Shown here piece after piece: positions 312 to 31,655 of a stretch of DNA of 32,000 nucleotides. The stretch covers positions 1,470,001-1,502,000 of the forward strand of contig CBDCNV010000002.1 in NCBI GenBank assembly GCA_965219535.1, in the 5' to 3' direction. The DNA is from Opitutales bacterium. Its GTDB lineage: Bacteria; Verrucomicrobiota; Verrucomicrobiia; Opitutales; PNEW01. Within the stretch, counting starts at the first letter, position 1. Each line of letters opens with the position of its first letter. Both the position numbers and the translations under genes were made by a program. A model generated the notes under the pieces. That model was given only the letters and a program-made list of their open reading frames with translations, did not search any database and was not told the DNA's origin.

Positions 312-480
312 CAGGTGAAACACGGTTCTTGATCTCAATGTCATCCCTCCTGCATTTGCAGGATGGATTGACTACGGCTATTCCCTAGCGCTTTTTTAAA
401 ATGTAATTTTAAAAAACGCGTAGGAAAAATCCGACACTCAGCTAGCTGAGTTATTGCGATCATGCACCGAGTTTCACCTG
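312..480 (+). repeat. Core element copy A (forward): 28-bp terminal inverted repeats enclosing three hairpins
   Basis: CAGGTGAAACACGGTTCTTGATCTCAAT at 312-339 pairs with ATTGCGATCATGCACCGAGTTTCACCTG at 453-480. Internal hairpins: GTCATCCCTCCTGCA-TTT-GCAGGATGGATTGAC, the AT-rich CTAGCGCTTTTTTAAAA-TGTAA-TTTTAAAAAACGCGTAG, and ACTCAGC-TA-GCTGAGT. Confidence 0.9.
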
Positions 481-3807: not shown

Positions 3808-3979
3808 CAGGTGAAACACGGTGCTTTATCTCAATGTCATCTCTCCTGCATCTGCAGGAGTGATTGACTACGGCTATTCCCCAGCGCTTTTTTAAAATTG
3901 TGATTTTAAAAAACGCGTAGGAAACATCCGACATCCCGCTGTGGCGGGATTATTGCGATCAAGCACCGTGTTTCAACTG
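3808..3979 (+). repeat. Core element copy C (forward)
   Basis: Same architecture. The third hairpin carries the compensated variant ATCCCGC-TGT-GGCGGGAT instead of ACTCAGC...GCTGAGT. Confidence 0.9.
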
Positions 3980-5239: not shown

Positions 5240-5410
5240 CAGTTGAAACACGATGCTTGATCGCGATGTCATCCCACCCGCATTTGCGGGAGGGATTGAC
5301 TACGGGTGATCCCTAGCGCTTTTTTTAAATCATCATTTAAAAAAACGCGTAGGAAACATCCGACACTCAGCTGTGCTGAGTTATTGAGATCAAGCACCGT
5401 GATTCACCTG
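5240..5410 (+). repeat. Core element copy D (forward)
   Basis: CAGTTGAAACACGATGCTTGATCGCGAT ... ATTGAGATCAAGCACCGTGATTCACCTG. The first hairpin apex is CCCGCA/TGCGGG. Confidence 0.9.
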
Positions 5411-5723: not shown

Positions 5724-8700
5724 TTACCGAACTCCACCTTCAAAACGTATTCTTGGATCGAGCCACATGAGGAGGAGGTCGCTGAGAAGGGTGCCGAGGA
5801 CTCCGAGGAGGCTGAGGACCATGAGCATCGATCCGGCCAGGTACATGTCTTGGGTCATGAGGGCTTCGAGCATCATGGGGCCGACGGTGGGCAGACTTAA
5901 AACCATGGCGACAATCGCGCCGCCCGATACCAATTGGGGGAAGAGGGTGCCGATCCCGGAGATAAAGGGATTGAGGGCGATTCGCACGGGATATTTTAAT
6001 AGAAGTCTAAAGGGTCTTACCCCTTTAGCCAATGCGGTGATGACGTAGGGTTTCTTCAATTCATCGAGGAGGTTGCCTCGCATGACCCGAATCATGCTCG
6101 CGGTACCGGTTACCCCGAGAACAACCACCGGGACCCAGATATGTTTCATGAGGTCGGCCACTTTTCCCCAGGTCCATTCGGGCTGACCCGCGTACTCAGG
6201 AGAAAACAAACCGCTCATGCGTATCCCGAAATATACATTGCTCCAGTACATAAGCAGGAGGGCGAGAAGAAAGCTGGGGATGCACATCCCGATAAAGCCG
6301 AGGAGAGAAAAAAAGTAATCGCCGATCGAGTACTGACGGACAGCCGAGTAAACACCGATAGGCAGGGCGACCGCCCAGGTAAAAAGGATAGACCCGAGAG
6401 AGATTAAAAAGGTGAGGAGGATGCGGTCACCGACGACGTCGTTCACCGGCGTTCGGCTCTGCATGGAAAAGCCGAGGTGACCCTGGAGCAAACCCTGGTC
6501 CTCGGACTTGAAGGAAAGAAACCAGGGCAGACCGAGCCATTGAAGATACTGAGTGATTGCCGGTTCATCGAGGGGAAAGATCTGACGCAATTGTTCGGCT
6601 TCAATTTTCGCCTGGTTATCGTTCGCCAACTCCGCTTGTAATATTTTCAAATCGATAAAATCGGCGGGCGGCAGCTGAATGATGGTAAAGGAAATGATCG
6701 AGATGATAAGTAAAGTGGGCACCATAATAAGGAATCGCCTTCCCACATAGGGATGTTTAAATCCTACGAGTATCAATCCCGCGGCAACGATACCCAATAT
6801 AAGATGGCGAATGATGTGCCTGAGAGAACTTCCACTTTTCTTATCAATGGTGACATCCAGTGCGCTGGGCTGTGGCGTAATCTCAATCACTTCACGTTTT
6901 ATTTGAGCGATCGCTCCCGGTGAATTGTACGGATCCTCAAGATAATAAGCTTCAGAACCACCCGCAGCGGTATTCTTAGCGAGATTTCCGTAAAGTGAAT
7001 TGCGCGGCACATTTTTAAAATCCTTCTTCACGATAACGATGGAGGGTTGACCCTGCGTGATGTTAATGTTCCAGAGATTATCTACGGCGATATCCTGAAT
7101 TTTCTGGTAGATATCTGTCTGTTCTATGAGGGTAAGCGCACTGGTCGCAGCGTCGAACAGTTCCATCGAACGCCGCAGGGGATGATCGACAGGGGGTTCA
7201 ATACTACCCGGTATATTTGCCGCTGGATTGCCGTATAAACCTCCGTTTTTATACCAGATGGTAAATCCGGCGGCTTCGACATGGCCGGGCACATAACGGT
7301 CCGGAGTGATCAGGGGGTGAAAATCGTCTACCGTTCCAGAGATGCTGAAATCTTGAACACGAGCGGCCATTTCGACTGTTCTGAGACCGCCGGAGCGAAA
7401 TCGCTCAATGGTGTTGAGCCCGACATTTTTCCAATCTTCTACGACAAAAGGTCCGGGACCTTCAGCAAAATTCGGGATGATGTCCAATAACCATACCATG
7501 CGGGTACCATCCTTAAAGGTGCGATAGCCCTCGCTATCGCGATGGGTAAGACCCAGTTCATCGAGCAGCTCGTTAGCGCGATCGGGATCGTACTCGACGT
7601 GGCTGTACCTGAGTTTTTCATGGTAAAATGCGGATTCCTTTCCCATCGAACTTTGGGCAGGTTCGCCCAATCCATAATAGATTGCATCGATGATTTGCTT
7701 TCGATTAATAGCGAGCGACAGTGCCTGGCGAAAGCGTTTGTCGTTGAGCAATCCCCACTTTTTTTTGGTCGTTGGGTTTTCGGGATCAATGTGCAGATTA
7801 AGATTCGGGTAGACTGCCCATTCGCTCAACCCTGAATCATACCAATGATAGACATCATACCCCCCGGCGTCGCGTTGAGACATAAATAGTGTATAATGTA
7901 AAAAATAGATGTTAAAGGTTTGCATCGTGATGGCTCCATTGGTGACGGCGATCGGGACCAGCTTTTCTGTCTTCACATCGATCATAATACGATCGACATA
8001 GGGAAGCTGGTTGCCCTCGGTATCAACAGCCCAGTAATAAGGATTGCGGACTGATACCTGGGGAGGATTGGACTTGTAGGTACGATAAATCCAGGGCCAG
8101 ATGCGAGGATGTTCCGGGTTGTTAGCAAGTTTCAGGGTAAGATAAAGCGCCTTTCTCGTGGGAGTTTTATAGGCTTTCATCGTGGCCTCGATAAGCGCAA
8201 CGTTGCCAAGCTCGGGGTGATATTTTTCCAGGTAGTGACGGGGTGAATAATACAGGGGTAGATAAGACAATCGTTCAAGGAGCATGCTATGAGGGTGTGG
8301 AAAAACAAACTTAACGGTATGAGGATCGATTTTTATAATCTCCCCTTCTTCCCCTTTAATTCTCATCCACAATGGGTATATGACTAATTCCTCTTTGACT
8401 TCGTATTGCCAGTAATAGAGTATATCGTCTGCGGTAAAAGGATGGCCGTCTGACCATTTCATGCCTTTGCGCAGGAAGAAGGTCCATTCTCTTTTATCGG
8501 GGGAAACTTCCCAACCCCTGGCAACGTGAGGGACGATGGGATTACCGAAAGGTGAAAAGCGTACGAGAGTATCGCCCGCTATCCATCCATTAACCGCCAC
8601 GGGAGCATTGGGGGAATTCCTAACCAGGTACCAGGTGCCGCCGTACTGGCCAATGCCGTCGACTCCTTCGATAACCACCGGCTCGGGTCCCACACGCTCA

Positions 8701-8999
8701 GCGACCGGCGGCAGTTTGCCCTCCGCTACCAGTTCGGCGAGAATCGGCGATTCCCCTTTCGGGTACCACCGACCGGATTCGCCCTCGCTATAATCGACAT
8801 CGTGCTGAACTTTGAAAAGGTCTTCTTTACTGAAACTGACATCTCTTAAATCCTCCGTGGTTTCGATCATTTCCGGACTGTATCGAATCGGTTCAAGCTC
8901 AAGCTCCGGCTTCAAGACATCGCTCCAGAAATACAAAAACCCGAAAAAGCAGAATCCCGTGAGGACTAGAAACCCCAGGAAATTAAAAGCACGTTTCAC
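5724..8999 (-). CDS. Fusion protein: N-terminal TM anchor, family-5 (peptide/nickel, DppA/OppA-like) ABC substrate-binding domain, and DppB/OppB-like permease domain
   Basis: 1091-aa ORF with a GTG start at 8997-8999. Hydrophobic N-terminus FLGFLVLTGFCFFGFLYF, followed by roughly 650 aa of SBP_bac_5-like sequence. After PYVGRRFLIMVPTLLIISIISFTIIQLPP comes a 6-TM permease with an EAA-like region (ITALAKGVRPFRLLLKYPVRIALNP). Confidence 0.8.
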   Translation of the reverse strand: MKRAFNFLGFLVLTGFCFFGFLYFWSDVLKPELELEPIRYSPEMIETTEDLRDVSFSKEDLFKVQHDVDYSEGESGRWYPKGESPILAELVAEGKLPPVAERVGPEPVVIEGVDGIGQYGGTWYLVRNSPNAPVAVNGWIAGDTLVRFSPFGNPIVPHVARGWEVSPDKREWTFFLRKGMKWSDGHPFTADDILYYWQYEVKEELVIYPLWMRIKGEEGEIIKIDPHTVKFVFPHPHSMLLERLSYLPLYYSPRHYLEKYHPELGNVALIEATMKAYKTPTRKALYLTLKLANNPEHPRIWPWIYRTYKSNPPQVSVRNPYYWAVDTEGNQLPYVDRIMIDVKTEKLVPIAVTNGAITMQTFNIYFLHYTLFMSQRDAGGYDVYHWYDSGLSEWAVYPNLNLHIDPENPTTKKKWGLLNDKRFRQALSLAINRKQIIDAIYYGLGEPAQSSMGKESAFYHEKLRYSHVEYDPDRANELLDELGLTHRDSEGYRTFKDGTRMVWLLDIIPNFAEGPGPFVVEDWKNVGLNTIERFRSGGLRTVEMAARVQDFSISGTVDDFHPLITPDRYVPGHVEAAGFTIWYKNGGLYGNPAANIPGSIEPPVDHPLRRSMELFDAATSALTLIEQTDIYQKIQDIAVDNLWNINITQGQPSIVIVKKDFKNVPRNSLYGNLAKNTAAGGSEAYYLEDPYNSPGAIAQIKREVIEITPQPSALDVTIDKKSGSSLRHIIRHLILGIVAAGLILVGFKHPYVGRRFLIMVPTLLIISIISFTIIQLPPADFIDLKILQAELANDNQAKIEAEQLRQIFPLDEPAITQYLQWLGLPWFLSFKSEDQGLLQGHLGFSMQSRTPVNDVVGDRILLTFLISLGSILFTWAVALPIGVYSAVRQYSIGDYFFSLLGFIGMCIPSFLLALLLMYWSNVYFGIRMSGLFSPEYAGQPEWTWGKVADLMKHIWVPVVVLGVTGTASMIRVMRGNLLDELKKPYVITALAKGVRPFRLLLKYPVRIALNPFISGIGTLFPQLVSGGAIVAMVLSLPTVGPMMLEALMTQDMYLAGSMLMVLSLLGVLGTLLSDLLLMWLDPRIRFEGGVR

Positions 9000-11553: not shown

Positions 11554-11723
11554 CAGGTAAAACACGATGCGTTATCTCAATAGCTCAGCATAGCTGAGCG
11601 CCAGATGTTTCCTACGCGTTTTTTTAAATTGTGATTTAAAAAAAGCGCTAGGGATCACCCGTAGTCAATCCACCCGCAAATGCGGGATGGATGACATTGA
11701 GATAAAGCATCGTGTTTCACCTG
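11554..11723 (-). repeat. Core element copy E (interior inverted relative to A-D and G-I)
   Basis: Hairpin order is reversed: GCTCAGC-ATA-GCTGAGC first, then the AT-rich hairpin, then GTCAATCCACCCGCA-AAT-GCGGGATGGATGAC. The flanks are in the same orientation as those of forward copies. Confidence 0.9.
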
Positions 11724-15086: not shown

Positions 15087-15256
15087 CAGGTGAAACACGA
15101 TGCTTTATCTCAATAGCTCAGCATAGCTGAGCGCCAGATGTTTCCTACGCGTTTTTTTAAATTGTGATTTAAAAAAAGCGCTAGGGATCACCCGTAGTCA
15201 ATCCACCCGCAAATGCGGGATGGATGACATTGAGATAAAGCATCGTGTTTCACCTG
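15087..15256 (-). repeat. Core element copy F (interior inverted)
   Basis: The last ~142 nt are identical to copy E. The right flank CTTTCTTTCCGAACTTCCCGGCCTTCCTGTAAAAG matches the right flank of forward copy H. Confidence 0.9.
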
Positions 15257-16852: not shown

Positions 16853-18227
16853 GGTACAACCAGGACATGGTTTACAGATTTAGATCAAGACATGGTTTAC
16901 ACTTTGTGAGGGATGCTGAACGGTAATCGGGTTATATAGTTAAGTTAATGTTATGCGGTTTTAGAGGTTTGGCTGGCATTGTTGGGGCCGCAAGCGGCCC
17001 CAATGAAAGCAGCCGTTGAAAGGTCAATCTGACCGATTCTGAGAGTGGCAAAGTAAACATCGAAGTGTACCGTGTCTAGTGGTTTTAGTCCAACGCTCCA
17101 ACCGGCGAGGGCGGTGGAGATAGGAATCTGGAAGCCATCGAGTTTGATAGACCCGCTTTTTGAGACCCGGCGAGTCATCAAATCATAGCTGATATCGGCA
17201 GGAGTGCCACCGTAAGGATGAGAGCTGTGCTGATAGATTTCAGAGGGCGTGCTCATGGCAAGAGCCGCATGGGGGCGTTCTTCATTGAAGGTCTTGCGCC
17301 ACAGATCGAAGGCCACCTGTTGGGTGCGAAGATCGTCCTGGGCATGTTTTTGCAACTCCTCTTTGATATCGCGATGGAGACGCTCATGGGCACCGTTATC
17401 CTGGGGTTTACCCGGACGTCCACGCTCGAGATTGATCCCTAAGGCCAGCCACCAGGCCGCCAGTTTGCTCAGGCCCAGGACCGCATTGGCACTGGCAAAG
17501 GGACTGCCGTTGTCGCTGCGGATGCAAGCGGGAAGTCCATAGCGTTCAAAGAGTTTTGTGAAGCATTCACGCACCGCTTCGCTACGGGCTGAACTGAGCA
17601 CCCGCACCTCTAATACATAGCGGCTCCATTCATCCCGTACCGTCAAAGGTTCACAACGGTTGCCATCAACGGTGTGCCACCACCCTTTGAAGTCTACGCT
17701 CCACACTTCGTTACAGCCACTGGCCTTGACGCTGCGGTAAAGGCGTCCGCTTTTTTGAGCGCTTCTGCGCCGACGCTTTTGCACCAGTCCCGCACGTTCC
17801 AAGACCCGTTTCACGCTCGAGTCTGAGGGGGCCTTCCCGTAACGCCTCTGGTAAAGCTCGCGGATCTTGTAGGGGCCCCACGTCGGGTGATGATGCTTGA
17901 GTTTGATCAGCGTACATACTACTGATTCGGATAGTTCCTGAACACTTCCATGCGGTCGGCGTGAGCGCTCGTGCAACCCCTCCATCCCTTCGCTCAGGAA
18001 GCGCTTCTTCCATTTATACCCTGTCGGTCGGCTGATCCCGTAGTCTTCACACAGCTCGTTCATCTTTACTCCCGGTTGCATCGATTCCAGGGCGAATTGG
18101 TATCTTTGGTCCATTTTATTTGTTTCCTTCCATGACATCATACCCCTTACTTAGCATCCTTCTTTCTTTGGCAATCTGTAAAGGATGTCCTGAACCTTTT
18201 GTGTAAAGAATGTCTTGAACCTATACC
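16853..18227 (-). mobile_element. IS481-family insertion sequence (about 1.37 kb) with terminal inverted repeats that each carry two tandem CARGACATNNTTTACA sites
   Basis: Left end: CAGGACATGGTTTACA at 16861-16876 and CAAGACATGGTTTACA at 16886-16901. Right end, reverse complement: CAGGACATCCTTTACA within 18175-18192 and CAAGACATTCTTTACA within 18200-18217. GGTACA/GGTATA lies at the outer tips. The exact ends and the target duplication are not resolved. Confidence 0.75.
16951..18141 (-). CDS. IS481-family DDE transposase (HTH plus rve integrase core)
   Basis: 396-aa intact ORF. It has an N-terminal HTH (ISRPTGYKWKKRF). The DDE region comprises WSVDFKGWW, IRSDNGSPFAS and PGKPQDNGAHERLHRDIKEE. 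Confidence 0.9.
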   Translation of the reverse strand: MMSWKETNKMDQRYQFALESMQPGVKMNELCEDYGISRPTGYKWKKRFLSEGMEGLHERSRRPHGSVQELSESVVCTLIKLKHHHPTWGPYKIRELYQRRYGKAPSDSSVKRVLERAGLVQKRRRRSAQKSGRLYRSVKASGCNEVWSVDFKGWWHTVDGNRCEPLTVRDEWSRYVLEVRVLSSARSEAVRECFTKLFERYGLPACIRSDNGSPFASANAVLGLSKLAAWWLALGINLERGRPGKPQDNGAHERLHRDIKEELQKHAQDDLRTQQVAFDLWRKTFNEERPHAALAMSTPSEIYQHSSHPYGGTPADISYDLMTRRVSKSGSIKLDGFQIPISTALAGWSVGLKPLDTVHFDVYFATLRIGQIDLSTAAFIGAACGPNNASQTSKTA

Positions 18228-23361: not shown

Positions 23362-23385
23362 GTCAAAAGGTCAAAAAGTCAAAAG
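23362..23385 (+). repeat. GTCAAAAR octamer array (3 units)
   Basis: GTCAAAAG GTCAAAAA GTCAAAAG, then a G-run. Confidence 0.85.
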
Positions 23386-23465
23386 GGGGGGGAGCGGAAA
23401 TCAGTGAACAGTAAACAGTGAACGGTGAGGGGAATGTGATTGCTTATTAATACACTGATTAAGCT

Positions 23466-23573: not shown

Positions 23574-25799
23574 TCATTCGATCGTTATCTCATCTACTTC
23601 GACGGTTAGGTCATCGCCATCTTCGTTAGTGAAGGTGGCATTTATACTTCGCGTGGGCTGAGGGGTGTTGTCGGACTTAAAATTGTTCTGGGTGATCAAT
23701 CGATCGAAGCCACGGGTTGTCGATCCGCTCTCGGCAACGACGATTGAAGCTCCATTTGTCTGAACGAGGTCACCTCCGGTTATACGTAATCCGGGGTTGC
23801 CGGCGGCGACGGTGAAGGACCCTTCTCCAAATAAGAGGTGAGGAACTGCATCGCCATCGGCATCGATGTCGCCGACGGTTAAGCGTACCGCGATCGGTAC
23901 TCCGCGCGCATCGATACCAACTTTGCCCGTGCTACCACTGAAAACTGTATTCGATAACTGCATGCCTCCCATTCCCGTTGAATTGATCACTTCGACGAGG
24001 GTGACGTCCGCTTGTGCATCATAGACTTGTCCCTCGGGGAAGAGTGCCTGGTTAACGGCATTGATTCTACCGACGGTGAAAATACTGAAGAAGGTATTGG
24101 AGTCTGCTCCATCGATAACTACACTGGGTCTTCCGGTGACATACTCGACTGCCTGGTTGTAGCGCGGGGGTATTGCCGGGGGCAGGAAAGTGGTCGGGTC
24201 GAGGGTTACAGTAAAGTTGCCTGCGCCTGAGAACTCTACCTGCACAATGTCCTCGGTTTCGTCCATGAAGGAGACGCGAGTGATCTGATTGGGTCTTGCC
24301 AGGAGCCGGATACTTTCCCCGGTGAGTAAAATCTGATCGAATACATTACCGTTAGGATGCTGAATATTTTCCCCGGCGATATCACCCGTTCCTTCAAGGA
24401 CCAGAGGCACGGAGGGAGCCGCAACTGTGATGACCGCGGTATCACTATCAGCTGTACCTTCGGCGTTAGTTATCTGTACCCAGAAGTTTGTATCCGCATT
24501 GAGTGCACCTGTGTCTAAGACATTGCTCGTAGCGCCGGTGACAGGACTGGCGGTGTCACCACTGTTACCGGTAAACCACTGGTAAGTTAAATCTTCACCG
24601 CTGGCGGCAACGGACAAACTCGCGGATGCACCTGATGCAACTTCCTGGCTCGTGGGTTGCGTAGTGATAGCTGGAGCATCTGCTGGAGGCGGTGCCTCAG
24701 ATCCAGTTCCGGGAGCACCAATGGGTGTAAATCCAAAATCGTCAATGGCGGTACGGCTTCTTTCAGGATTAATATTAGGATCATCCTTCATCACTATCCT
24801 GCTAATGCCACCCGGGGCTCCCAGTTCCACTGCATTAATCGTTACAAAGCCAGGTTTGAACTCAGGTGTTATATCCCCTTCTAAATTTGTAAGGGTGGCG
24901 ATTAAGTTATCGTTTGTATCATAGACATCAACTGACCCATCGACATCTGAGCTACCTGATAAGACCACGGTAGCCCCGAAAAAATCAATTTCATATGCAG
25001 GGGTTTCAAAGGTAACAGTCGCTTCTTCACCATTAAATATCGCATAAGTATGAGGAATTGATCGCACACGTCCACCAGCAGCAGGTTCACCAAAAAATTG
25101 GATGAGACCTCCTTCAAAAGAAGCAGTAGTGGGTGGCGTTCCAATGACTAACGGTTCTGACTGACCTGCGCCCGCGCCAAATTCACTAAACATTGTGTAA
25201 AAAGTGTTGTTAGAGGGAAAATCCGTCAGGGTGAATCCCAGGTCATCGAGTGATAATTTTCCGGTTACATTCGAAAGCTTTACTTCAATAATGCCGCCGA
25301 GAAAGTTAAAATCATCTTCATCAAAAAAATTACCACTCTCTGCGACAAAGCTATATAATGTGGGGTTGGTATCGGGGCTGATATTAGTCGGCAGCCCTTC
25401 GATTACGCCGTCCTCGCCGATAAGGACGATCGCCTGACTATCTGCTCCGAACGCCGATTCATTGAGCACTCCCCTGATCTCCATCCTGCCAGCACCCGTG
25501 TTCTCAGCCGCATAAAATTCAATAAATTGAAGGCCTCTTGAGGATGAAATTCTCCCCTCCTGTCCAGGTGCCAGGGTTATCGCTTTTGTACCTGAATGTA
25601 AGAGCGCAGGATCCTCTAAAGTCTCCACAGTAAAACCGGATAGCGTAACCGTGTTTGGCTCCTGACCTATGATGATATTGCCTTCACCGCTGATGTCCTC
25701 GAAATCGGTGAACACCTCCAGGTCTTGAGGCAGGGCAATGAGAAGCAGCGGGGATAAAGTTGAGAAAATTATGAGCGCGAGAGAATTTTTGAAGAACAT
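23574..25799 (-). CDS. Secreted 741-aa protein, tandem paralog 1. Domains: signal peptide, two divergent beta-sandwich-like modules ending in (I/L)DD(L/F)GFT, an Ig-like domain, a ~255-aa invariant C-terminal domain and an acidic tail. No family recognised.
   Basis: Signal peptide MFFKNSLALIIFSTLSPLLLIALP. Ig-like block ITTQPTSQEVASGASASLSVAASGEDLTYQWF...VQITNAEGTADSDTAVITV. The C-terminal 281 aa are nearly identical to paralog 2. Confidence 0.9.
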   Translation of the reverse strand: MFFKNSLALIIFSTLSPLLLIALPQDLEVFTDFEDISGEGNIIIGQEPNTVTLSGFTVETLEDPALLHSGTKAITLAPGQEGRISSSRGLQFIEFYAAENTGAGRMEIRGVLNESAFGADSQAIVLIGEDGVIEGLPTNISPDTNPTLYSFVAESGNFFDEDDFNFLGGIIEVKLSNVTGKLSLDDLGFTLTDFPSNNTFYTMFSEFGAGAGQSEPLVIGTPPTTASFEGGLIQFFGEPAAGGRVRSIPHTYAIFNGEEATVTFETPAYEIDFFGATVVLSGSSDVDGSVDVYDTNDNLIATLTNLEGDITPEFKPGFVTINAVELGAPGGISRIVMKDDPNINPERSRTAIDDFGFTPIGAPGTGSEAPPPADAPAITTQPTSQEVASGASASLSVAASGEDLTYQWFTGNSGDTASPVTGATSNVLDTGALNADTNFWVQITNAEGTADSDTAVITVAAPSVPLVLEGTGDIAGENIQHPNGNVFDQILLTGESIRLLARPNQITRVSFMDETEDIVQVEFSGAGNFTVTLDPTTFLPPAIPPRYNQAVEYVTGRPSVVIDGADSNTFFSIFTVGRINAVNQALFPEGQVYDAQADVTLVEVINSTGMGGMQLSNTVFSGSTGKVGIDARGVPIAVRLTVGDIDADGDAVPHLLFGEGSFTVAAGNPGLRITGGDLVQTNGASIVVAESGSTTRGFDRLITQNNFKSDNTPQPTRSINATFTNEDGDDLTVEVDEITIE

Positions 25800-25840
25800 G
25801 GCGATCCCATTTGTCCGGTTAATATTAAAACGTATGAATT

Positions 25841-25869
25841 TAATTAATGGCTAACGGCTGCCCCGTCAA
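25841..25869 (-). promoter_or_regulatory. Sigma70-like promoter of paralog 1: TTGACG, 17-nt spacer, TAATTA
   Basis: Minus strand: -35 at 25869-25864 and -10 at 25846-25841, about 42 nt upstream of the ATG. The same architecture is conserved upstream of all three paralogs. Confidence 0.5.
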
Positions 25870-26054
25870 ATTTTAACCGCGGATAACACGGATGAACGCC
25901 GATAAAATAAATAGTGAAGATTGTTAGCCACAAAAGGCACAAGAGGCACAAGAAAGAAATTTGCACCGCAGAGGCTCAGAGGCGCAGAGGTGGAATTGGA
26001 GGAGTCTAAAGTCGGAGGTCGAAAGTCGAAAGTTGGAAAAAGCAAAATATTGTT

Positions 26055-26225
26055 CAGTTGAAACACGGTGCTTGATCGTCAATGTCATCCTTCCCGCAGA
26101 TGCGGGAGGATTGACTACGGCTGATCCCTAGCGCTTTTTTTAAATAATGATTTAAAAAAACGCGTAGGAAACATCCGACACTCAGCGATGCTGAGTTATT
26201 GAGATCAAGCACCGTGTTTCAACTG
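26055..26225 (+). repeat. Core element copy H (forward), 256 nt upstream of the paralog 1 start codon
   Basis: CAGTTGAAACACGGTGCTTGATCGTCAAT ... ATTGAGATCAAGCACCGTGTTTCAACTG. First hairpin: GTCATCCTTCCCGCA-GA-TGCGGGAGGATTGAC. Confidence 0.9.
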
Positions 26226-26361
26226 AGCTCTCTTTCCGAACTTCCCGTTCTTCCTGTAAAATCTTTTTTGTGCTTCTTGTGCCTCTTGTGGCCAACTCTA
26301 CTTTTACCCTGCGTCTCTGCGGTGAACTTTCTTAATCTAAAACCTTACACTGATCGATAAA

Positions 26362-28557
26362 TCACTCGATCGTTATTTCATCCACCTCGACGGTTATCTC
26401 TTCATCGTCCTCATTGATAAAGGTTGCATTAATGATCTGTGTGGGCTGAGGAGTGTTGTCGGACTTAAAATTGTTCTGGGTGATCAATCGATCGAAACCG
26501 CGGGTTGTCGATCCGCTCTCGGCGACAACGATTGAAGCTCCATTTGTCTGAACGAGGTCTCCCCCGGTGATGCGTAAACCGGGGTTGCCAGCGGCGACGG
26601 TGAAGGACCCTTCACCGAACAAGAGGTGAGGCACTGCATCGCCATCGGCATCGATGTCACCGACGGTTAAGCGTACCGCGATGGGTACTCCGCGCGCATC
26701 GATACCAACTTTACCCGTGCTACCACTGAAAACTGTATTCGATAACTGCATGCCTCCCATTCCCGTTGAGTTGATCACTTCGACGAGGGTCACGTCCGCT
26801 TGTGCATCGTAGACCTGTCCCTCGGGGAAGAGTGCCTGGTTAACGGCATTGATTCTACCAACGGTGAAAATACTGAAGAAGGTATTGGAGTTTGCTCCAT
26901 CGATGACAACGCTGGGTCTGCCCGTGACATACTCGACTGCCTGGTTGTAGCGTGGGGGTATTGCCGGGGGCAGGAAAGTGGTCGGGTCGAGGGTCACAGT
27001 AAAGTTGCCTGCCCCTGAAAACTCTACCTGTACTATGTCCTCGGTTTCGTCCATGAAGGAGACGCGAGTAATCTGGTTGGGTCTTGCCAGGAGCCGGATG
27101 CTTTCCCCGGTGAGTAAAATCTGGTCGAAGACATTACCGTTCGGGTGTTGAATGTTTTCCCCGGCGATATCCCCCGTTCCTTCCAGGACCAATGGTACGG
27201 AGGGAGCTATAACTGTGATGACTGCGGTGTCGCTATCCACACTCGTTCCCGATACCTGGCTTACCCGCACCCAGCAACTCGAATTCTCGTTTACTTCCCC
27301 TTTGTCTAAGGTGCTACTAGTGGCTCCGGCTATTGGATTAGAGGTGTCGCCACTGTTGCCAAGATACCATTGGTAGGAGAGGCCATCGCCACTGGCGGTG
27401 ACTGATACGAGAACTGAGGTGCTGATCGACACTTCCTGGCTCGCGGGTTGAGTGGTGATGGTTGGTGCATCAGCAGGGGGCGGAGATGATGTGTCAGTGC
27501 CGGGAGCGCCGATGGGAGTAAATCCTAAGTCATCAATTCTAGTTCGACTGAACAGTGGGTTTACATTGGGATCGTCTATTAAGACCAACCTGCTAATGCC
27601 GCCCGGTGCTCCCAATTCAACCGCATTGATCGTTATAAAATCAGGTTTAAAATCGGGACTGAGATCAGCTTCAAAATCCGAAAAAGTTGCGAGCAGGTTA
27701 TCCTCTGTATCGTATACTTCAACCGAACTATCAGGATCGGTACTGCTCGAAGTTACAATCGTTCCCCCGAAAAAATCCACCTCGAAGACTGGAGTTTCAA
27801 AAGTGATGGTCGCGGTTTCGCCGTTTTGTATGTTGTAAGCAAAAATGGTGCGCCCACCGTCAAAAATAAACCCACCTGTTAAGGTGGCACTAAACGGCGA
27901 TTCCCCAACGATAATCGGAGCTGATATACCGTCACCCCCACTCAGTTCATCAAAGGTAGTAAAGACGGTGTTGTTGACGGGTCTATCAGTCAGGGTGATT
28001 CCCAAATCATCAAGGGAAAATTTTCCTGAAACATTGAATACCTTCATTTCTTCAATGCCGTTAAGAAAATCAAAATCAGTGGTATCGAGGAAACTATTAC
28101 TGTCGGAGACAAAACTATATAAGGGGGGATCGGAGCCAGGGCTGATATCACTCGACAGATTTTCGACAATGCCATTATAGACGACCGAGGTTAATATCAG
28201 ATCATCCAGGTCTATATAGATTTTACCTCTGAACTCGATCTTGCCAGCGCCCGCCGATTCAGCCGCATAGAATTGAATCAGTTGAATCCCTCCTCTTTCC
28301 GCTACTATTTTCCCCTCCTGACCGGGCCCGAGGGTTATCGCTTTTGTTCCAGAGTGTAGTAGCGATGGATCCTCTAAAGTCTCTACGGTGAAGCCCACTA
28401 ACTTGACCCTGTTTGGCACTTCCCCGATGAAAAATTCACCTTCACCACTGATGTCCTCGAAATCCGTGAATATCTCCAAGTCCTGAGGCAGAGCTGAAAG
28501 GAGAAGTGGGGATAGAATGGAAAAAATTATGAGCGTTAGAGAATTTTTAAATGACAT
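26362..28557 (-). CDS. Secreted protein, tandem paralog 2 (731 aa from ATG 28557; the ORF track extends it to 28587)
   Basis: The MSFKNSLTLIIFSILSPLLLSALP signal peptide aligns with the starts of paralogs 1 and 3 (CATGGC(G/T)ATCC context). The architecture is the same. The 3' ~790 nt are about 94% identical to paralog 1. Confidence 0.9.
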   Translation of the reverse strand: MSFKNSLTLIIFSILSPLLLSALPQDLEIFTDFEDISGEGEFFIGEVPNRVKLVGFTVETLEDPSLLHSGTKAITLGPGQEGKIVAERGGIQLIQFYAAESAGAGKIEFRGKIYIDLDDLILTSVVYNGIVENLSSDISPGSDPPLYSFVSDSNSFLDTTDFDFLNGIEEMKVFNVSGKFSLDDLGITLTDRPVNNTVFTTFDELSGGDGISAPIIVGESPFSATLTGGFIFDGGRTIFAYNIQNGETATITFETPVFEVDFFGGTIVTSSSTDPDSSVEVYDTEDNLLATFSDFEADLSPDFKPDFITINAVELGAPGGISRLVLIDDPNVNPLFSRTRIDDLGFTPIGAPGTDTSSPPPADAPTITTQPASQEVSISTSVLVSVTASGDGLSYQWYLGNSGDTSNPIAGATSSTLDKGEVNENSSCWVRVSQVSGTSVDSDTAVITVIAPSVPLVLEGTGDIAGENIQHPNGNVFDQILLTGESIRLLARPNQITRVSFMDETEDIVQVEFSGAGNFTVTLDPTTFLPPAIPPRYNQAVEYVTGRPSVVIDGANSNTFFSIFTVGRINAVNQALFPEGQVYDAQADVTLVEVINSTGMGGMQLSNTVFSGSTGKVGIDARGVPIAVRLTVGDIDADGDAVPHLLFGEGSFTVAAGNPGLRITGGDLVQTNGASIVVAESGSTTRGFDRLITQNNFKSDNTPQPTQIINATFINEDDEEITVEVDEITIE

Positions 28558-28598
28558 GGCTATCCCTGTTGTCCGGTTAATATTCAAGCGATTGAATT

Positions 28599-28627
28599 TA
28601 ATTAATAGCTATGAGTCCCCCCGTCAA
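28599..28627 (-). promoter_or_regulatory. Sigma70-like promoter of paralog 2: TTGACG, 17-nt spacer, TAATTA
   Basis: Minus strand: -35 at 28627-28622 and -10 at 28604-28599. The leader ...AATATTAACCGGACAA..GGGAT.GCCATG is homologous to that of paralog 1. Confidence 0.5.
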
Positions 28628-28634
28628 ACTATAG

Positions 28635-28666
28635 GTCAAAAAGTCAAAAGGTCAAAAAGTCAAAAA
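28635..28666 (+). repeat. GTCAAAAR octamer array (4 units), 7 nt from the paralog 2 -35 box
   Basis: GTCAAAAA GTCAAAAG GTCAAAAA GTCAAAAA. On the minus strand this reads as TTGAC every 8 nt. Confidence 0.85.
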
Positions 28667-28842
28667 GGGAAGAGCGGTGCAATGTCGGATTGCAGATGTC
28701 GGAATGTAAGATGTCGAGCTTAGCTTTCGGTAGCGGATTGATCTGGAATGGCAGGTTATCAAACTTCTCTCTTGATAACAGATTGGTAATGGATTGCCGC
28801 GCTGCGCTCGCAATGACAAAAAGGGGGGGAATTCAGTGGGAA

Positions 28843-28926
28843 CAGTGAACAGTGAACAGTGAACAGTGAACAGTGAACAGTGAACAGTGAACAGTGAACA
28901 GTGAACAGTGAACAGTGAACAGTGAA
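28843..28926 (+). repeat. Perfect heptanucleotide microsatellite (CAGTGAA)x12 between paralog 3 and the paralog 2 promoter
   Basis: I counted 12 uninterrupted units. Shorter CAGTGAA/GGTGAAC runs occur at 9142-9181, 13360-13388 and 23402-23427. Confidence 0.95.
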
Positions 28927-28970
28927 AGAGCAGTGACACCTAACACATAATAGGCATTAGGTCTCCTACA

Positions 28971-28994
28971 TTTTGACTTTTTGACCTTTTTGAC
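28971..28994 (-). repeat. GTCAAAAR array immediately after the paralog 3 stop codon, in that gene's sense orientation
   Basis: The reverse complement reads TAG G GTCAAAAAG GTCAAAAA GTCAAAA. Confidence 0.85.
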
Positions 28995-28995
28995 C

Positions 28996-31230
28996 CTACT
29001 CAATCGTCAACTCCTCGACGGCAACTTCGATCGCATCGCCATCCTCGTTCGCGAAGGTGGCATCAATACTCAGTGTCGGCTGAGGGGTGTTGTCGGACTT
29101 GAAGTTGTTCTGTGTGATCAGGGTGTCAAACCCGGTCGTTGTCGAACCACTCTCGGCGACGACAACAGCGGCACCGTTTGTCTGCAAGAGGTCTCCACCC
29201 GTGATCCGTAACCCGGGGTTGCCGGCTGGAACGGTGAAGGAGCCTGAGCCAAACAGAATGTGCGGTACCGCATCGCCACTGGCATCGATATCGCCAATCG
29301 TTAAGCGTACCCCGATAGGTACTCCACGCGCGTCGATACCGGTCTTGCCCGTACTTCCACTAAACGCGGTGTTCGACAGTTGTATGCCGCCCATTCCCGT
29401 GGAATTAACAATCTCAACAAGGGTAACGTCAGCCTGCGCATCATAAACCTGTCCCTCGGGGAAGAGGGCCTGGTTAAAGGCGTTTATCCTACCCACGGTG
29501 AAGATACTGAAGAAGGTATTGGCGTCCGCTCCTTCGATCACGACGCTCGGTTTGCCCGTCACGTACTCAACGGCCTGGTTGTAGCGTGGTGGGATGGCCG
29601 GGGGAAGGAAGGTGGCCGGATCCAGGGTTACAGTAAAGGTCCCATTACCTGAGAATTCCACCTGTACGATGTCCTCGGTTTCATCCATAAAGGAGACGCG
29701 AGTAATCTGATTCGGTCTCGCCTGTAACCGGATGGTTTCTCCAGTGAGTAAAATCTGGTCGAAGACATTACCGTTGGCATGCTGGATATTTTCACCTGCA
29801 ATGTCACCCGTACCGTCGAGGACGAGAGGAACGGCGGGAGCCGCTACGGTTACGACCGCGGTATCGCTGTTCGCGGTACCCCCGGCGTTAGTAATCTGAA
29901 CCCAGAAGCTGGTGCTCGCGGAAAGCGCACCCGTGTCTAAGGTTCCAGCGATCGCGCCGGCGACGGGACTGGCGGTGTCACCGCTGTTACCGGTATACCA
30001 CTGGTAGGTTAAATCGTCACCGCTGGCAGCAACGGACAAACTCGCGGATGCACCGGATGCAATTTCCTGGCTTGCAGGTTGGGTCGTGATCGCAGGAGCA
30101 GCAGCGGGTGGGGGACCCTCTGATCCGCTACCCGGGAATCCAACCGGGGTATATCCAAAATCGTCGATGCAAGTAGTACCGTCTTCATTATTAGTAGGGT
30201 GATCTCTCAATACAATTCTACTTATACCATCTGGTATCCCTAAGTCACCTGCATTAATATTTACAGAACCGGGTTTAAAGAGGGGGTCAACAGAAGATTC
30301 TAAATTATCAATCGTAACGACTAAGTTGTCGTTTGTATCATATACGTCGATAAATCCATCTGGTAAAATCCCTTCTTTTGGTGGTGTACCCTGAGTTGCG
30401 AACACATCAATTTTATAGGCCGGTGTTTCAAAAGTGATCGTTGCTTCCACACCATTCGTTACTCCATATGCATAAGCTGCAGATCGGACATTGCACCCGA
30501 AACGAGCGAATTCAGAATGAACAGCTCCTCCCTCAATAGTAGCAATATAAGGCGGCATCCCAAGGATTATCGGTTCAAACTCCCCATCACCTGCACCATA
30601 TGTATCAAACTCTTCGTAAACAGTGTTGTTTGAGGGGAAGTCGGTCAGGGTGAATCCGAGGTCATCGATCACCAGTTTTCCCGTAACATTTAAAAACTTA
30701 ACGTTATTTATCCCGTTATGGAAATCAAGATCGGTGTTATCAAAAAAACTGCCGCTGTCTCCGACCCAGCTATATAAAGTCGGATTGGCACCGGGGCTTA
30801 TATTTGCCGGTAGTCCTGTGATAACAGCACCAGCTTCAATACCACCGAGGACGAGTTCAGTGTGCCTATCAGCGCCTCCGGAAGCACCGACATTTTTAAT
30901 CCCTCTTACTTCTATTTTGCCCGCCCCTGTCGATTCACCCGCGTATAATTGAAGAAATTGTAGCCCTCTGCTGGAGATTATTTGCCCCTCCTGTCCGGGG
31001 CCCAGGGTGAGCGCCTTGGTTCCCGAATGTAATTGCGCCGGATCTTCTAAAGTTTCCACCGTGAAACCGACCAAGGTAATCACGTTTGGCTCCTCGCCGA
31101 TGAAGATCGTCCCTTCTCCACTGACATTTTCAAAATCGGTGAATATTTCCAGATCTTGAGGGAGGGCGATGAGAAGAAGAGGTGAAAAAACTGAGAAAAT
31201 AATGAGTGTTAGAGTATTTTTGAATGACAT
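28996..31230 (-). CDS. Secreted 744-aa protein, tandem paralog 3 (most divergent of the three)
   Basis: MSFKNTLTLIIFSVFSPLLLIALP signal peptide and the same domain order. The C-terminal domain is about 85-90% identical at the protein level to paralogs 1 and 2. Confidence 0.9.
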   Translation of the reverse strand: MSFKNTLTLIIFSVFSPLLLIALPQDLEIFTDFENVSGEGTIFIGEEPNVITLVGFTVETLEDPAQLHSGTKALTLGPGQEGQIISSRGLQFLQLYAGESTGAGKIEVRGIKNVGASGGADRHTELVLGGIEAGAVITGLPANISPGANPTLYSWVGDSGSFFDNTDLDFHNGINNVKFLNVTGKLVIDDLGFTLTDFPSNNTVYEEFDTYGAGDGEFEPIILGMPPYIATIEGGAVHSEFARFGCNVRSAAYAYGVTNGVEATITFETPAYKIDVFATQGTPPKEGILPDGFIDVYDTNDNLVVTIDNLESSVDPLFKPGSVNINAGDLGIPDGISRIVLRDHPTNNEDGTTCIDDFGYTPVGFPGSGSEGPPPAAAPAITTQPASQEIASGASASLSVAASGDDLTYQWYTGNSGDTASPVAGAIAGTLDTGALSASTSFWVQITNAGGTANSDTAVVTVAAPAVPLVLDGTGDIAGENIQHANGNVFDQILLTGETIRLQARPNQITRVSFMDETEDIVQVEFSGNGTFTVTLDPATFLPPAIPPRYNQAVEYVTGKPSVVIEGADANTFFSIFTVGRINAFNQALFPEGQVYDAQADVTLVEIVNSTGMGGIQLSNTAFSGSTGKTGIDARGVPIGVRLTIGDIDASGDAVPHILFGSGSFTVPAGNPGLRITGGDLLQTNGAAVVVAESGSTTTGFDTLITQNNFKSDNTPQPTLSIDATFANEDGDAIEVAVEELTIE

Positions 31231-31271
31231 GGCGATCCCTGATAAAGCGTTAAAATATAAGTGATTGAAAT

Positions 31272-31299
31272 TTATTAAGAGGTGTTATCCGGGTGTCAA
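31272..31299 (-). promoter_or_regulatory. Sigma70-like promoter of paralog 3: TTGACA, 16-nt spacer, TAATAA
   Basis: Minus strand: -35 at 31299-31294 and -10 at 31277-31272. The 14-bp perfect palindrome TTATCCGCGGATAA (31303-31316) abuts the -35. Confidence 0.45.
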
Positions 31300-31485
31300 A
31301 TTTTATCCGCGGATAACGCGGATGGGAAATAGAGGAGTCGAAAGTCGAAGATCGATCAGGGAATAGCCACAAAAAGCACAAAAGGCACAAAACCGAAATT
31401 TGCACCGCAGAGGCGCAGAGGTGGAATTGGAGGAGTCTAAAGTCTAAGGTCGAAAGTCGAAAGTGGGAAAAAGCAAAATGTTGTT

Positions 31486-31655
31486 CAGGTGAAACACGGT
31501 GCATGATCTCAATGTCATCCATCCCGCAGATGCGGGAGGATTGACAATGGCTATTCCTAACGCGTTTTTTAAAATCATGATTTTTAAAAACGCGTAGGAA
31601 ACAGCCGACACTCAGCTGTGCTGAGTTATTGCGATCAAGCACCGTGTTTCACCTG
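31486..31655 (+). repeat. Core element copy I (forward), 256 nt upstream of the paralog 3 start codon
   Basis: Same architecture, embedded in an upstream region homologous to 25800-26054. Confidence 0.9.

What the first reader, a model, noticed from the sequence alone, without database searches (positions are those of the whole stretch)
23574..31230. Three tandem paralogs with a divergent N-terminal half and a C-terminal domain frozen at the protein level despite many synonymous changes
All three genes encode the same domain order. A signal peptide is followed by two modules ending in the strand motif (I/L)DD(L/F)GFT, a PPPA(D/A)AP linker, an Ig-like domain, a ~255-aa C-terminal domain containing GDIDADGDAVPHLLFGEG, and an acidic tail (..EVDEITIE). 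Paralogs 1 and 2 differ at roughly 50 nucleotide positions across the ~790-nt 3' block (about 23650-24440 against 26440-27230; hand count, approximate). Only one of those changes alters an amino acid (GADSN against GANSN). That is very strong purifying selection, not simply recent gene conversion. The N-terminal ~360 aa are only about 50-60% identical, while the first ~80 codons are again conserved. A variable head on an invariant C-terminal module suggests a family in which the constant part docks to a shared partner (cell envelope, secretion or anchoring apparatus, or a multimeric scaffold). The variable part would then carry diversified binding specificity. There is no PEP-CTERM, LPXTG or lipobox, and no obvious T9SS CTD. 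I cannot place the C-terminal domain in a known family.
Basis: partly seen in the sequence, partly recalled or inferred. Interest (0 to 1): 0.7.

Follow-up and report, generated by a model that had tools for sequence, protein, structure and literature searches.

The report
Variable-head, constant-base secreted protein family
Three neighbouring genes in a marine Opitutales (Verrucomicrobiota) bacterium belong to a family of dozens of secreted proteins per genome that join fast-diverging binding modules to an almost unchanging ~280-residue domain that no database describes.

Summary
P1 (23574-25799), P2 (26362-28557) and P3 (28996-31230) share one architecture: signal peptide, two jelly-roll modules, PPPA linker, Ig domain, ~280-aa C-terminal (CT) domain. 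Over the 256-codon CT core, P1 and P2 differ at 50 nucleotides and one amino acid (omega 0.006).

Two things are new. First, CT-core dS for P1/P2 is 0.30, against 1-2 in the rest of the gene. So the block was exchanged by recombination or gene conversion some time ago, and has since been held by very strong purifying selection. Both forces acted.

Second, the trio is a small sample of a large family. Two related Opitutales genomes hold at least 62 and at least 33 CT copies, often in tandem arrays. Across 34 members, CT identity averages 90% and head identity 49%. The CT domain forms 722 clusters at 50% identity and is fused to 51 different Pfam families.

It has no Pfam, NCBIfam or PHROG model and no name. 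Its confident AlphaFold model (pLDDT 94) matches nothing in PDB or BFVD by Foldseek.

Most likely the CT domain is a shared docking or assembly base for diversified ligand-binding heads. That function is inferred, not shown.

The parts
23574..25799 (-). P1, 741-aa family member (signal peptide, two jelly-roll modules, linker, Ig, CT domain)
   Evidence: ORF; alignment; the exact protein is on record in two ENA assemblies; part coordinates
26362..28557 (-). P2, 731-aa family member. The real start is most likely ATG 28557, not the upstream TTG 28587
   Evidence: called as 731 aa in L072 and L073
28996..31230 (-). P3, 744-aa family member
23652..24419 (-). P1 CT-domain core (aa 461-716). This is the high-identity tract shared with P2
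   Evidence: 50 nt and 1 aa differences from P2; omega 0.006, dS 0.30; AF2 pLDDT 94.1, all-beta; no Pfam, NCBIfam or PDB match
26440..27207 (-). P2 CT-domain core (aa 451-706), partner of the P1 tract; carries the single Asp-to-Asn change
   Evidence: All 32 other family sequences have the P1 state (G, giving GAC/Asp) at that position
29074..29841 (-). P3 CT-domain core (aa 464-719), 89% identical in protein to P1 and P2
   Evidence: 28-29 aa differences; dS 1.33-1.37; omega 0.047
23574..23651 (-). P1 last 25 codons plus stop (…EVDEITIE). These are the final strands of the CT fold and lie outside the P1/P2 tract. The equivalents are 26362-26439 in P2 and 28996-29073 in P3
   Evidence: 7 of 25 aa differ between P1 and P2, with saturated dS; strands at CT residues 262-264 and 273-276; the TIE end is conserved in nearly all relatives
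24420..24668 (-). P1 Ig-like domain (PF19081 Ig_7). Equivalents: P2 27208-27459, P3 29842-30090
   Evidence: Pfam E=5.5e-9 for P1 and 1.1e-9 for P3; P2 is below the cut-off at 20 bits; the Ig domain matches phage tail and decoration Ig domains
24669..24719 (-). P1 Pro-rich linker (GAPGTGSEAPPPADAPA). Equivalents: P2 27460-27510, P3 30091-30141
   Evidence: Alignment; pLDDT dips below 50 at residues 368-370
24720..25733 (-). P1 variable head: two jelly-roll beta-sandwich modules (aa 23-193 and 194-360). Equivalents: P2 27511-28491, P3 30142-31164
   Evidence: AF2 pLDDT 88.9; Foldseek hits to multidomain chains that contain Eph ligand-binding, MAM, reelin or CBM-bearing glycosidase domains together with Ig/Fn3 domains, E ~1e-7; 56% identity P1/P2 and omega 0.13-0.20; the most variable segments are indel-rich loops
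25734..25799 (-). P1 predicted Sec signal peptide (MFFKNSLALIIFSTLSPLLLIA), no Cys or lipobox. Equivalents: P2 28492-28557, P3 31165-31230
   Evidence: Read from the sequence; N-terminal helix 2-19 in the model; not tested with a signal-peptide predictor
28628..28655 (-). Promoter-like site upstream of P2 (TTGACC-16-TATAGT). A similar TTGAC(G/A) box and an AT-rich leader lie upstream of all three ATGs
   Evidence: Consensus scan, 10/12 match; the number of sites is not above the shuffles; the conserved ~80 nt before each ATG were read directly. Candidate only

Best explanation
The three genes are tandem members of a very large family of Sec-exported, probably cell-surface or extracellular, modular proteins. 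The family belongs to a clade of marine Opitutales and has dozens of copies per genome. Each protein has a ligand-binding head made of two jelly-roll modules of the MAM / Eph-LBD / CBM kind. The loops of these modules diverge quickly. The head sits on an Ig spacer, followed by a ~280-aa all-beta 'base' domain.

This base domain is an undescribed module that is widespread and appears to extend beyond Verrucomicrobiota. Elsewhere it carries many unrelated passengers, including proteases, glycosidases, propellers and Ig arrays.

Shown: the base is kept nearly invariant by purifying selection (family omega ~0.05; 0.006 for P1/P2). Because it is the only part similar enough between paralogs to recombine, it is occasionally exchanged by gene conversion. 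One such event made the CT cores of P1 and P2 younger (dS 0.30) than the rest of the genes (dS 1-2).

Inferred: the base does the same job in every paralog. It most likely docks the protein non-covalently to one shared envelope component or to other copies of itself. The heads provide different binding specificities, plausibly for marine glycans, given the neighbouring sulfatase-, dioxygenase- and transporter-rich gene content.
For: - Architecture and exact counts.
- ML codon model: CT omega 0.006 (P1/P2) and 0.047 (against P3); heads 0.13-0.20.
- Family-wide: 34 full-length members have CT 90% identical (minimum 82%), head 49%, and CT omega ~0.06. CT pS ~0.55 both within and between genomes, so the paralogs are old and selection, not homogenisation, is the main force.
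- Mosaicism: each region has a different nearest neighbour. L005 and L025 have identical heads but CT dS 0.49. The nearest synonymous CT neighbour is in the same genome for 27 of 34 sequences, against ~15 expected from the genome sizes in the sample (my calculation).
- Copy number: at least 62 and at least 33 CT copies in two genomes, with tandem arrays at 2.5-2.9 kb spacing. More than 100 distinct ~740-aa clusters across at least 15 large contigs.
- Promiscuity: 722 clusters at 50% identity. The domain is C-terminal in 100 of 130. 51 Pfam families are fused to it, including Peptidase_S8, GH26, Beta-lactamase, CARDB, RCC1 and Ig arrays.
- Head fold.
- CT fold: confident and unmatched.
Against: - No experiment or localisation data exist. 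No name or annotation exists anywhere.
- No partner or secretion gene recurs near family members.
- A conserved stand-alone form (P0106, signal peptide plus domain), N-terminal placements, and proteins with two copies show that the domain has a function of its own. That function could be catalytic or ligand-binding rather than anchoring.
- Invariant polar residues (Gln, Arg, two Asp, Glu and two Tyr, with a nearly invariant His) cluster in its first ~100 residues. This fits an active or binding site as well as it fits a docking surface.
Confidence: 0.5

Rival explanations
1. The CT domain is the functional, catalytic or ligand-processing part, for example an undescribed carbohydrate-active enzyme. 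The two jelly-roll modules are CBM-type targeting modules, giving the classic layout of signal peptide, CBM, CBM, Ig spacer and catalytic domain.
For: - The stand-alone secreted form is conserved at >=90% identity on contigs from at least eight assemblies.
- A cluster of invariant polar residues is kept even between branches only 40-45% identical.
- The genes sit among sulfatases, PhyH dioxygenases and transporters.
- The head resembles CBM-bearing glycosidases.
Against: - The domain is appended to proteins that already have catalytic domains of unrelated chemistry: subtilase, GH26 and beta-lactamase fold.
- 30-60 paralogs per genome with a ~90% identical 'catalytic' domain would be unusual for enzymes that diversify in specificity.
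- There is no similarity to any solved enzyme.
Confidence: 0.2
2. The CT domain is a secretion or sorting domain recognised by an outer-membrane export machine, functionally like the T9SS CTD or an autotransporter translocator, and perhaps removed afterwards.
For: - The domain is at the extreme C-terminus in 77% of representatives and takes many kinds of cargo.
- All full-length members have N-terminal signal peptides.
- The adjacent Ig domain is of the 'CHU_C-associated' type.
Against: - No hit to T9SS CTD, PEP-CTERM, LPXTG or autotransporter models.
- No match to outer-membrane barrels or CTD folds.
- It also occurs alone, N-terminally and in duplicate.
- It is 3-4 times larger and far more conserved than known sorting domains (general knowledge).
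- No machinery gene is nearby.
Confidence: 0.12
3. The CT domains of all paralogs co-assemble into one lattice or fibre (S-layer-like), with each subunit displaying a different head. The need to fit every other paralog freezes the whole surface of the domain.
For: - Conservation covers essentially the entire domain, not one patch (90% family-wide, 99.6% for P1/P2).
- The stand-alone head-less form could be a filler subunit.
- The family takes up roughly 3% of a ~4.4-Mb genome (my arithmetic: about 62 copies x 2.2 kb).
- Proteins with a planctomycete-style N-terminus put the domain at the start of ~900-aa repeat-rich, fibre-like proteins.
Against: - There is no oligomer prediction or experimental evidence.
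- Enzyme passengers and two-copy proteins are not typical of S-layer subunits.
Confidence: 0.13
4. The 49:1 synonymous to non-synonymous pattern is only a by-product of recent gene conversion or chance and says nothing about selection.
For: - The P1/P2 CT block is indeed younger than the rest of the genes.
- The lowest other family pair has an 8.5% non-synonymous fraction. Against that value, 1 of 50 gives only P=0.07.
Against: - Conversion erases synonymous as well as non-synonymous differences, yet 49 synonymous changes (dS 0.30) accumulated afterwards.
- Omega=0.05 is rejected (2dlnL 9.2; about p=0.002, chi-square with 1 df, my calculation).
- Binomial P=2.6e-4 against the family mean.
- Family-wide pN is 0.05 at pS 0.55.
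Confidence: 0.03

Closest known systems
Clostridioides difficile cell-wall proteins (three CWB2 repeats, PF04122) and SLH-domain surface proteins of Firmicutes (from general knowledge)
   Same: These are many paralogs per genome in which a constant, non-covalent envelope-anchoring module of ~170-270 aa is joined to unrelated variable functional domains. This is the closest analogy for how the family may work.
   Different: They are from Gram-positive bacteria. Their anchoring modules are repeats with known glycan ligands. There is no sequence hit and no fold match. The ligand and location of the CT domain here are unknown.
T9SS cargo with C-terminal domains (type A TIGR04183, type B/CHU_C TIGR04131) in Bacteroidota
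   Same: A C-terminal beta-rich domain that accepts many kinds of cargo, on dozens of signal-peptide-bearing proteins. The Ig_7 domain here is the Pfam type named 'CHU_C associated'.
   Different: No HMM hit at E<=1. T9SS CTDs are ~70-100 aa and poorly conserved between paralogs (general knowledge). This domain is ~280 aa, ~90% conserved, and also found alone, N-terminally and in duplicate.
Autotransporters (passenger plus ~270-aa C-terminal beta-barrel, PF03797)
   Same: Signal peptide, variable passenger, and a C-terminal all-beta domain of similar size.
   Different: No PF03797 hit. Foldseek finds no outer-membrane barrel. The strand lengths are irregular, and the protein ends in ...TIE rather than an aromatic residue.
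Surface glycan-binding proteins and CBM-bearing proteins of marine polysaccharide degraders
   Same: Tandem jelly-roll binding modules on Ig-like spacers. The head model hits a multimodular xanthanase, a beta-1,2-glucanase and a GH85 enzyme, as well as MAM and Eph domains. The genes lie near sulfatases.
   Different: No CBM Pfam model is matched. There is no lipoprotein anchor and no SusC/D-like neighbours. No binding has been tested.
Hypervariable multigene families defined by a conserved C-terminal domain in parasites (Theileria Tpr, PMC10730637; T. cruzi MASP, PMC2691823; abstracts only)
   Same: Large, partly tandem families with a conserved terminal domain and variable remainder.
   Different: These are eukaryotic and linked to host-parasite interaction, with unrelated sequences. 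The analogy is only conceptual.

Membership tests
PF19081 Ig_7 (Ig-like domain, CHU_C associated) | Pfam HMM score above the gathering cut-off (27.3 bits) | tested here: met
   P1 36.6 bits and P3 38.9 bits. P2 scores only 20 bits, below the cut-off, but aligns to the same columns
T9SS C-terminal sorting domain (type A or type B) | Match to TIGR04183/TIGR04131 or the Pfam equivalents at the C-terminus | tested here: not met
   No NCBIfam or Pfam hit in the CT region at E<=1; none in distant members either
PEP-CTERM / exosortase, LPXTG / sortase and related short sorting signals | Short C-terminal motif, then a transmembrane helix and a basic tail | tested here: not met
   The proteins end in an acidic beta-strand ...EVDEITIE with no hydrophobic helix; no HMM hit
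Bacterial lipoprotein | Lipobox with an invariant Cys at the end of the signal peptide | tested here: not met
   No Cys in the first 30 residues of P1, P2 or P3
Autotransporter (type Va) | C-terminal 12-strand outer-membrane beta-barrel (PF03797) | tested here: not met
   No Pfam hit; the AF2 model has no Foldseek match to any barrel in PDB, best E=2.2
Jelly-roll binding modules (MAM / Eph ligand-binding domain / CBM-like) | Beta-sandwich jelly-roll fold; for true membership, a family HMM hit and a ligand-binding site | tested here: inconclusive
   Fold-level resemblance only. Foldseek E ~1e-7 to multidomain chains containing such modules (EphA4, RPTPmu MAM-Ig, reelin, xanthanase), with low whole-chain TM-scores and rmsd above 18 A; the alignments also span the Ig domain, and I did not check which domain carries the score. 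No Pfam hit. No binding tested
Non-covalent envelope-anchor modules (SLH, CWB2) | Sequence or fold membership, and binding to a secondary cell-wall glycan | tested here: not met
   No Pfam hit and no fold match. Binding cannot be tested here. The resemblance is functional analogy only
Multigene family evolving by gene conversion (concerted evolution) | Tracts with lower synonymous divergence than their flanks, and incongruent nearest neighbours along the gene | tested here: met
   P1/P2 CT dS is 0.30 against 1.0-2.0 in the flanks. Nearest neighbours differ by region. L005 and L025 have identical heads but different CT domains. Homogenisation is weak overall: pS is 0.53-0.55 within the two related genomes (0.50 for the three window pairs) against 0.55-0.60 between genomes
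Diversity-generating retroelement target | Adenine-specific variation in a C-terminal variable region, with a template repeat and reverse transcriptase nearby | tested here: not met
   Variation is spread over the N-terminal head with indels. No reverse transcriptase among the ten larger window ORFs scanned, and no template-like repeat in the 9-kb region holding the three genes

The most novel reading that the evidence does not exclude
The ~280-aa CT domain is a new fold and the core of an undescribed surface-display or self-assembly system. Such a system would tether or co-assemble dozens of different passengers on the cell surface of Opitutales and related bacteria. In marine Opitutales it has expanded to 30-60 paralogs per genome, roughly 3% of the genome, forming a diversified array of ligand-binding heads on one constant base.
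Probability: 0.3. Interest if true: 0.8.

Novelty: new variant of a known kind. Interest (0 to 1): 0.56.

Why it matters
Verrucomicrobiota and Planctomycetota are important degraders of marine and soil polymers, but how they display proteins on their surface is poorly understood, and this clade shows none of the standard sorting signals on these proteins.

A single undescribed domain is present in more than 700 clusters at 50% identity. It is fused to proteases, glycosidases, propellers and binding modules, and it is amplified to dozens of copies per genome under near-absolute purifying selection. That makes it a strong candidate for a missing piece of that surface biology.

It is directly testable. 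The domain models with high confidence, is small enough to express, and offers a natural series of heads for ligand screening. The family is also a clear bacterial example of domain-wise mosaic evolution, in which recombination is confined to the only conserved segment.

Tried and rejected
1. Invertible promoter: a ~160-nt segment with 21-bp inverted repeats lies upstream of P1 and P3 and looked like an inverton. It occurs seven times in the 32-kb window, in both orientations, next to unrelated genes. It is a MITE/REP-like repeat, not specific to the family.

2. Synteny between the P1-amidohydrolase pair and the P0106-amidohydrolase pair: the two amidohydrolases are unrelated.

3. Phage link: only the Ig domain hits phage tail and decoration proteins. 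The CT domain has no BFVD match and no relative on viral contigs.

4. Sequence and profile searches against PDB chains found nothing for the CT domain.

6. Strain polymorphism: the three assemblies of the locus are 99.8-99.95% identical, so no pN/pS could be drawn from them.

7. Partner-gene census around 60 related loci found only the clade's abundant catabolic, transport and IS families.

8. Literature searches found no description of the family.

9. Rfam over the region gave only one chance-level hit.

10. The strand-versus-loop difference in head conservation is not significant overall (0.52 vs 0.48, p=0.095). Only specific loops are hypervariable.

Full report
1. WHAT IS THERE

The region holds three same-strand (minus) ORFs: P1 23574-25799 (741 aa), P2 26362-28587 and P3 28996-31230 (744 aa). 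The homologous ATG of P2 is at 28557, giving 731 aa. That matches the paralogs and the public gene calls.

A three-way alignment shows one architecture:
- a signal peptide of about 22 aa, with no Cys;
- module 1, ending ...LDDLG(F/I)TLTD;
- module 2, ending ...IDD(F/L)G(F/Y)TP(I/V);
- a Pro-rich linker, PPPA(D/A)AP;
- an Ig-like domain;
- a 256-aa core and a 25-aa end (...E(I/L)TIE).

Pfam recognises only the Ig domain (PF19081: P1 and P3 above the cut-off, P2 below it). NCBIfam recognises nothing.

2. THE SUBSTITUTION PATTERN

Over the 256-codon C-terminal (CT) core, P1 and P2 differ at exactly 50 nucleotides. 48 are at third positions, one is a synonymous CTG/TTG change, and one is non-synonymous (GAC/AAC). 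There are 33 transitions and 17 transversions, evenly spaced.

- Nei-Gojobori: dS 0.315, dN 0.0017.
- My ML codon model (GY94-type, F3x4): omega 0.006, dS 0.30. It rejects omega=0.05 with 2dlnL=9.2.
- For P1/P3 and P2/P3 the same domain has dS 1.33-1.37 and omega 0.047.
- The heads have omega 0.13-0.20 and dS 1-4.

The edges fall at APSVPLVLEG on the 5' side and about 75 nt before the stop codon on the 3' side. The flanks, including the last 25 codons, are at or near saturation. So the P1/P2 CT cores share a more recent ancestor than the rest of the two genes. That means a past gene-conversion or recombination event, followed by about 0.3 synonymous substitutions per site with a single amino-acid change.

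The Ig region tells a different history: P1 is closer to P3 (dS 0.8) than to P2 (dS 2-3). So the genes are mosaics.

3. THE TRIO IS A SAMPLE OF A VERY LARGE FAMILY

The CT domain found 211 clusters at 90% identity in the word-indexed search. In the exhaustive HMMER scan it found 722 cluster representatives at 50% identity, 398 of them with E<1e-30. None has a name other than 'hypothetical protein'.

A genome scan returned 67 loci, almost all from two long-read Opitutales MAGs. In the DNA fetched from those two genomes alone I count at least 62 CT copies (about 55 near full length) in one MAG, whose contigs 4-7 total about 4.4 Mb, and at least 33 in the other, a 4.49-Mb chromosome. Same-strand tandem arrays of 2-4 copies at 2.5-2.9 kb spacing are common, exactly like the window's trio.

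Most copies are intact ORFs of about 740 aa with the same signal peptide (...ALPQDLEVFTDFE...) and the same ...TIE end. A profile search listed more than 100 further distinct ~740-aa clusters from at least 15 large contigs.

The window's own locus is on record in two ENA assemblies at 99.8-99.95% identity.

Across 34 full-length members, mean pairwise protein identity is:
- first ~90 residues: 57%;
- variable head: 49%;
- Ig: 74%;
- CT core: 90% (minimum 82%);
- last 25 residues: 72%.

Family-wide, CT omega is about 0.06. CT pS is about 0.55 and pN about 0.05, both within and between genomes. The paralogs are therefore mostly old, and purifying selection is the main reason the domain is constant.

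Conversion is occasional but real:
- many pairs have CT dS far below head dS;
- L005 and L025 have identical heads but CT dS 0.49;
- every region of each window gene has a different nearest relative;
- the nearest synonymous CT neighbour lies in the same genome for 27 of 34 sequences, against about 15 expected from the number of sequences per genome (my calculation).

The simplest mechanism, which is inferred, is that only the CT core keeps enough nucleotide identity between paralogs to support homologous recombination. Tracts would then end where homology ends.

Even within this family, P1/P2 is the most extreme pair. The binomial probability of at most 1 non-synonymous change in 50 is 2.6e-4 against the family mean, but only 0.07 against the next-lowest pair.

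4. WHAT THE PARTS LOOK LIKE

The CT domain models with very high confidence (pLDDT 94.1, pTM 0.92) as an all-beta domain of about 20 strands. HMMER alignments often split it near residue 125, which suggests two sub-domains.

The head models well (pLDDT 88.9) as two beta-sandwiches, a flexible linker and an Ig domain. Its best PDB matches are multidomain proteins built from jelly-roll binding modules plus Ig or Fn3 domains: the EphA4 ectodomain, RPTPmu MAM-Ig, reelin repeats, meprin, enteropeptidase, a multimodular xanthanase and a GH85 enzyme. The two modules are faintly similar to each other (E=0.003). The most variable, indel-rich head segments are loops at residues 114-122, 234-242 and 277-285.

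5. WHAT THE DOMAIN DOES ELSEWHERE

In 62 diverse representatives the CT domain is fused to 51 different Pfam families. These include Ig arrays, Peptidase_S8, CARDB, He_PIG, Beta-lactamase, beta-propellers, CAP and GH26.

It is within 15 residues of the C-terminus in 100 of 130 representatives that carry a complete domain. However, 27 have more than 60 residues after it, and 7 have it right after the N-terminal signal with long extensions. The latter include proteins with an ...LEQRQLLA... N-terminus that I recognise as planctomycete-like. Several proteins have two copies.

A stand-alone form (P0106, 302 aa, signal peptide plus domain) is conserved at >=90% identity on large contigs from at least eight assemblies.

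No secretion or anchoring gene recurs beside P0106 or beside 60 family loci. The neighbours are IS elements, PhyH dioxygenases, sulfatases, SBP-permease fusions and symporters. No viral contig encodes the domain.

6. INTERPRETATION

Shown:
- a secreted modular family with diversifying heads and a constant base;
- selection plus occasional homology-limited conversion as the evolutionary mechanism;
- a base domain that accepts many passengers and is undescribed.

Inferred: the base performs one common task for all paralogs. The most likely task is non-covalent docking to a shared envelope component or to other copies of itself. This would work like the CWB2 or SLH anchor modules of Gram-positive surface-protein families, with the heads supplying different ligand specificities.

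The stand-alone, N-terminal and duplicated occurrences argue against a pure export tag. They keep two alternatives open: an intrinsic catalytic or ligand-binding function, and a co-assembling lattice.

Membership tests for T9SS CTD, PEP-CTERM/LPXTG, lipoprotein and autotransporter all failed.

7. VERDICT

It belongs to a known kind, a constant-module and variable-head surface-protein multigene family, built on a new module. Interest is moderate to high.

Noticed in passing
window 317-475, 1726-1884, 3813-3974, 5245-5405, 15092-15251, 26060-26220, 31491-31650 (partial copies near 11701 and 19814): A ~160-nt interspersed element bracketed by ~21-bp terminal inverted repeats (GGTGAAACACGGTGCTTGATC...). 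It has several internal hairpins and occurs seven times in 32 kb, in both orientations. It folds at -99 kcal/mol (z = -13.7). It is nearly absent from the related Opitutales loci. It looks like a MITE/REP-like element and has no Rfam match in the part scanned.
   Followed up: yes
window 28826-28937 (between the P3 stop and the P2 start); degenerate copy at 23378-23433: Heptamer microsatellite, (GAACAGT)n on the plus strand. There are 12 perfect copies in the window and L073 but 15 in L072, and an adjacent poly-C run also differs in length. This length polymorphism lies about 270 nt upstream of P2. Any effect on P2 expression is unknown.
   Followed up: partly
window 28179 and 28181 (P2 codons 126-127): The only coding differences between the window and the two public assemblies of this locus are two nucleotide changes two bases apart. 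They change Val-Tyr to Ala-Asp in the variable part of head module 1. P1 and P3 are identical in all three assemblies.
   Followed up: partly
window 16951-18141 (-); L072 and L073: An IS481-family transposase. IS content differs between the otherwise 99.8-99.95% identical assemblies (an extra copy upstream in L073, truncated forms in L072), so transposition in this population is recent. IS3-type transposases are also the most frequent neighbours of family loci in the related genomes.
   Followed up: partly
window 5724-8999 (-): A 1091-aa ORF fuses an extracellular solute-binding domain (SBP_bac_5) to an ABC permease domain (BPD_transp_1). Homologous ORFs recur in 14 of the 60 related loci, so it is a clade-typical fused transporter component.
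   Followed up: no
L005 vs L025 (CBDANS01 contigs 5 and 4): Two family members have essentially identical heads (variable-head dS 0.01) but clearly different CT domains (dS 0.49). This is the mirror image of P1/P2 and shows that heads and bases are exchanged in both directions.
   Followed up: partly
P0106 (L068 10001-10909 and relatives): A 302-aa protein made only of a signal peptide and the CT domain (about 60% identical to P1's). It is conserved at >=90% identity on large contigs from at least eight assemblies. It may be the ancestral or partner form of the domain.
   Followed up: partly
P0216, P0244 (metagenomic proteins): Proteins of about 1150 aa with a planctomycete-style N-terminus (...LEQRQLLA...). 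The CT-type domain is at residues ~32-266, followed by ~900 aa of Thr/Gly/Ser/Ala/Asn-rich repeats ending in a hydrophobic ...IVVVIV tail. There are no Pfam or NCBIfam hits. They may be fibre-like surface proteins.
   Followed up: no
window 25800-25880, 28558-28660, 31231-31330 (minus strand, upstream of each ATG): About 80 nt before each start codon are conserved among the three genes: a TTGAC(G/A) box, an AT-rich TTAATTAAATTCA-like stretch, and ...GGGAT(C/A)GCC before the ATG. This suggests that each paralog has its own similar promoter and leader. The intergenic regions are also full of short tandem motifs (TTTTGAC, TTCGAC, TTGTGCC).
   Followed up: no
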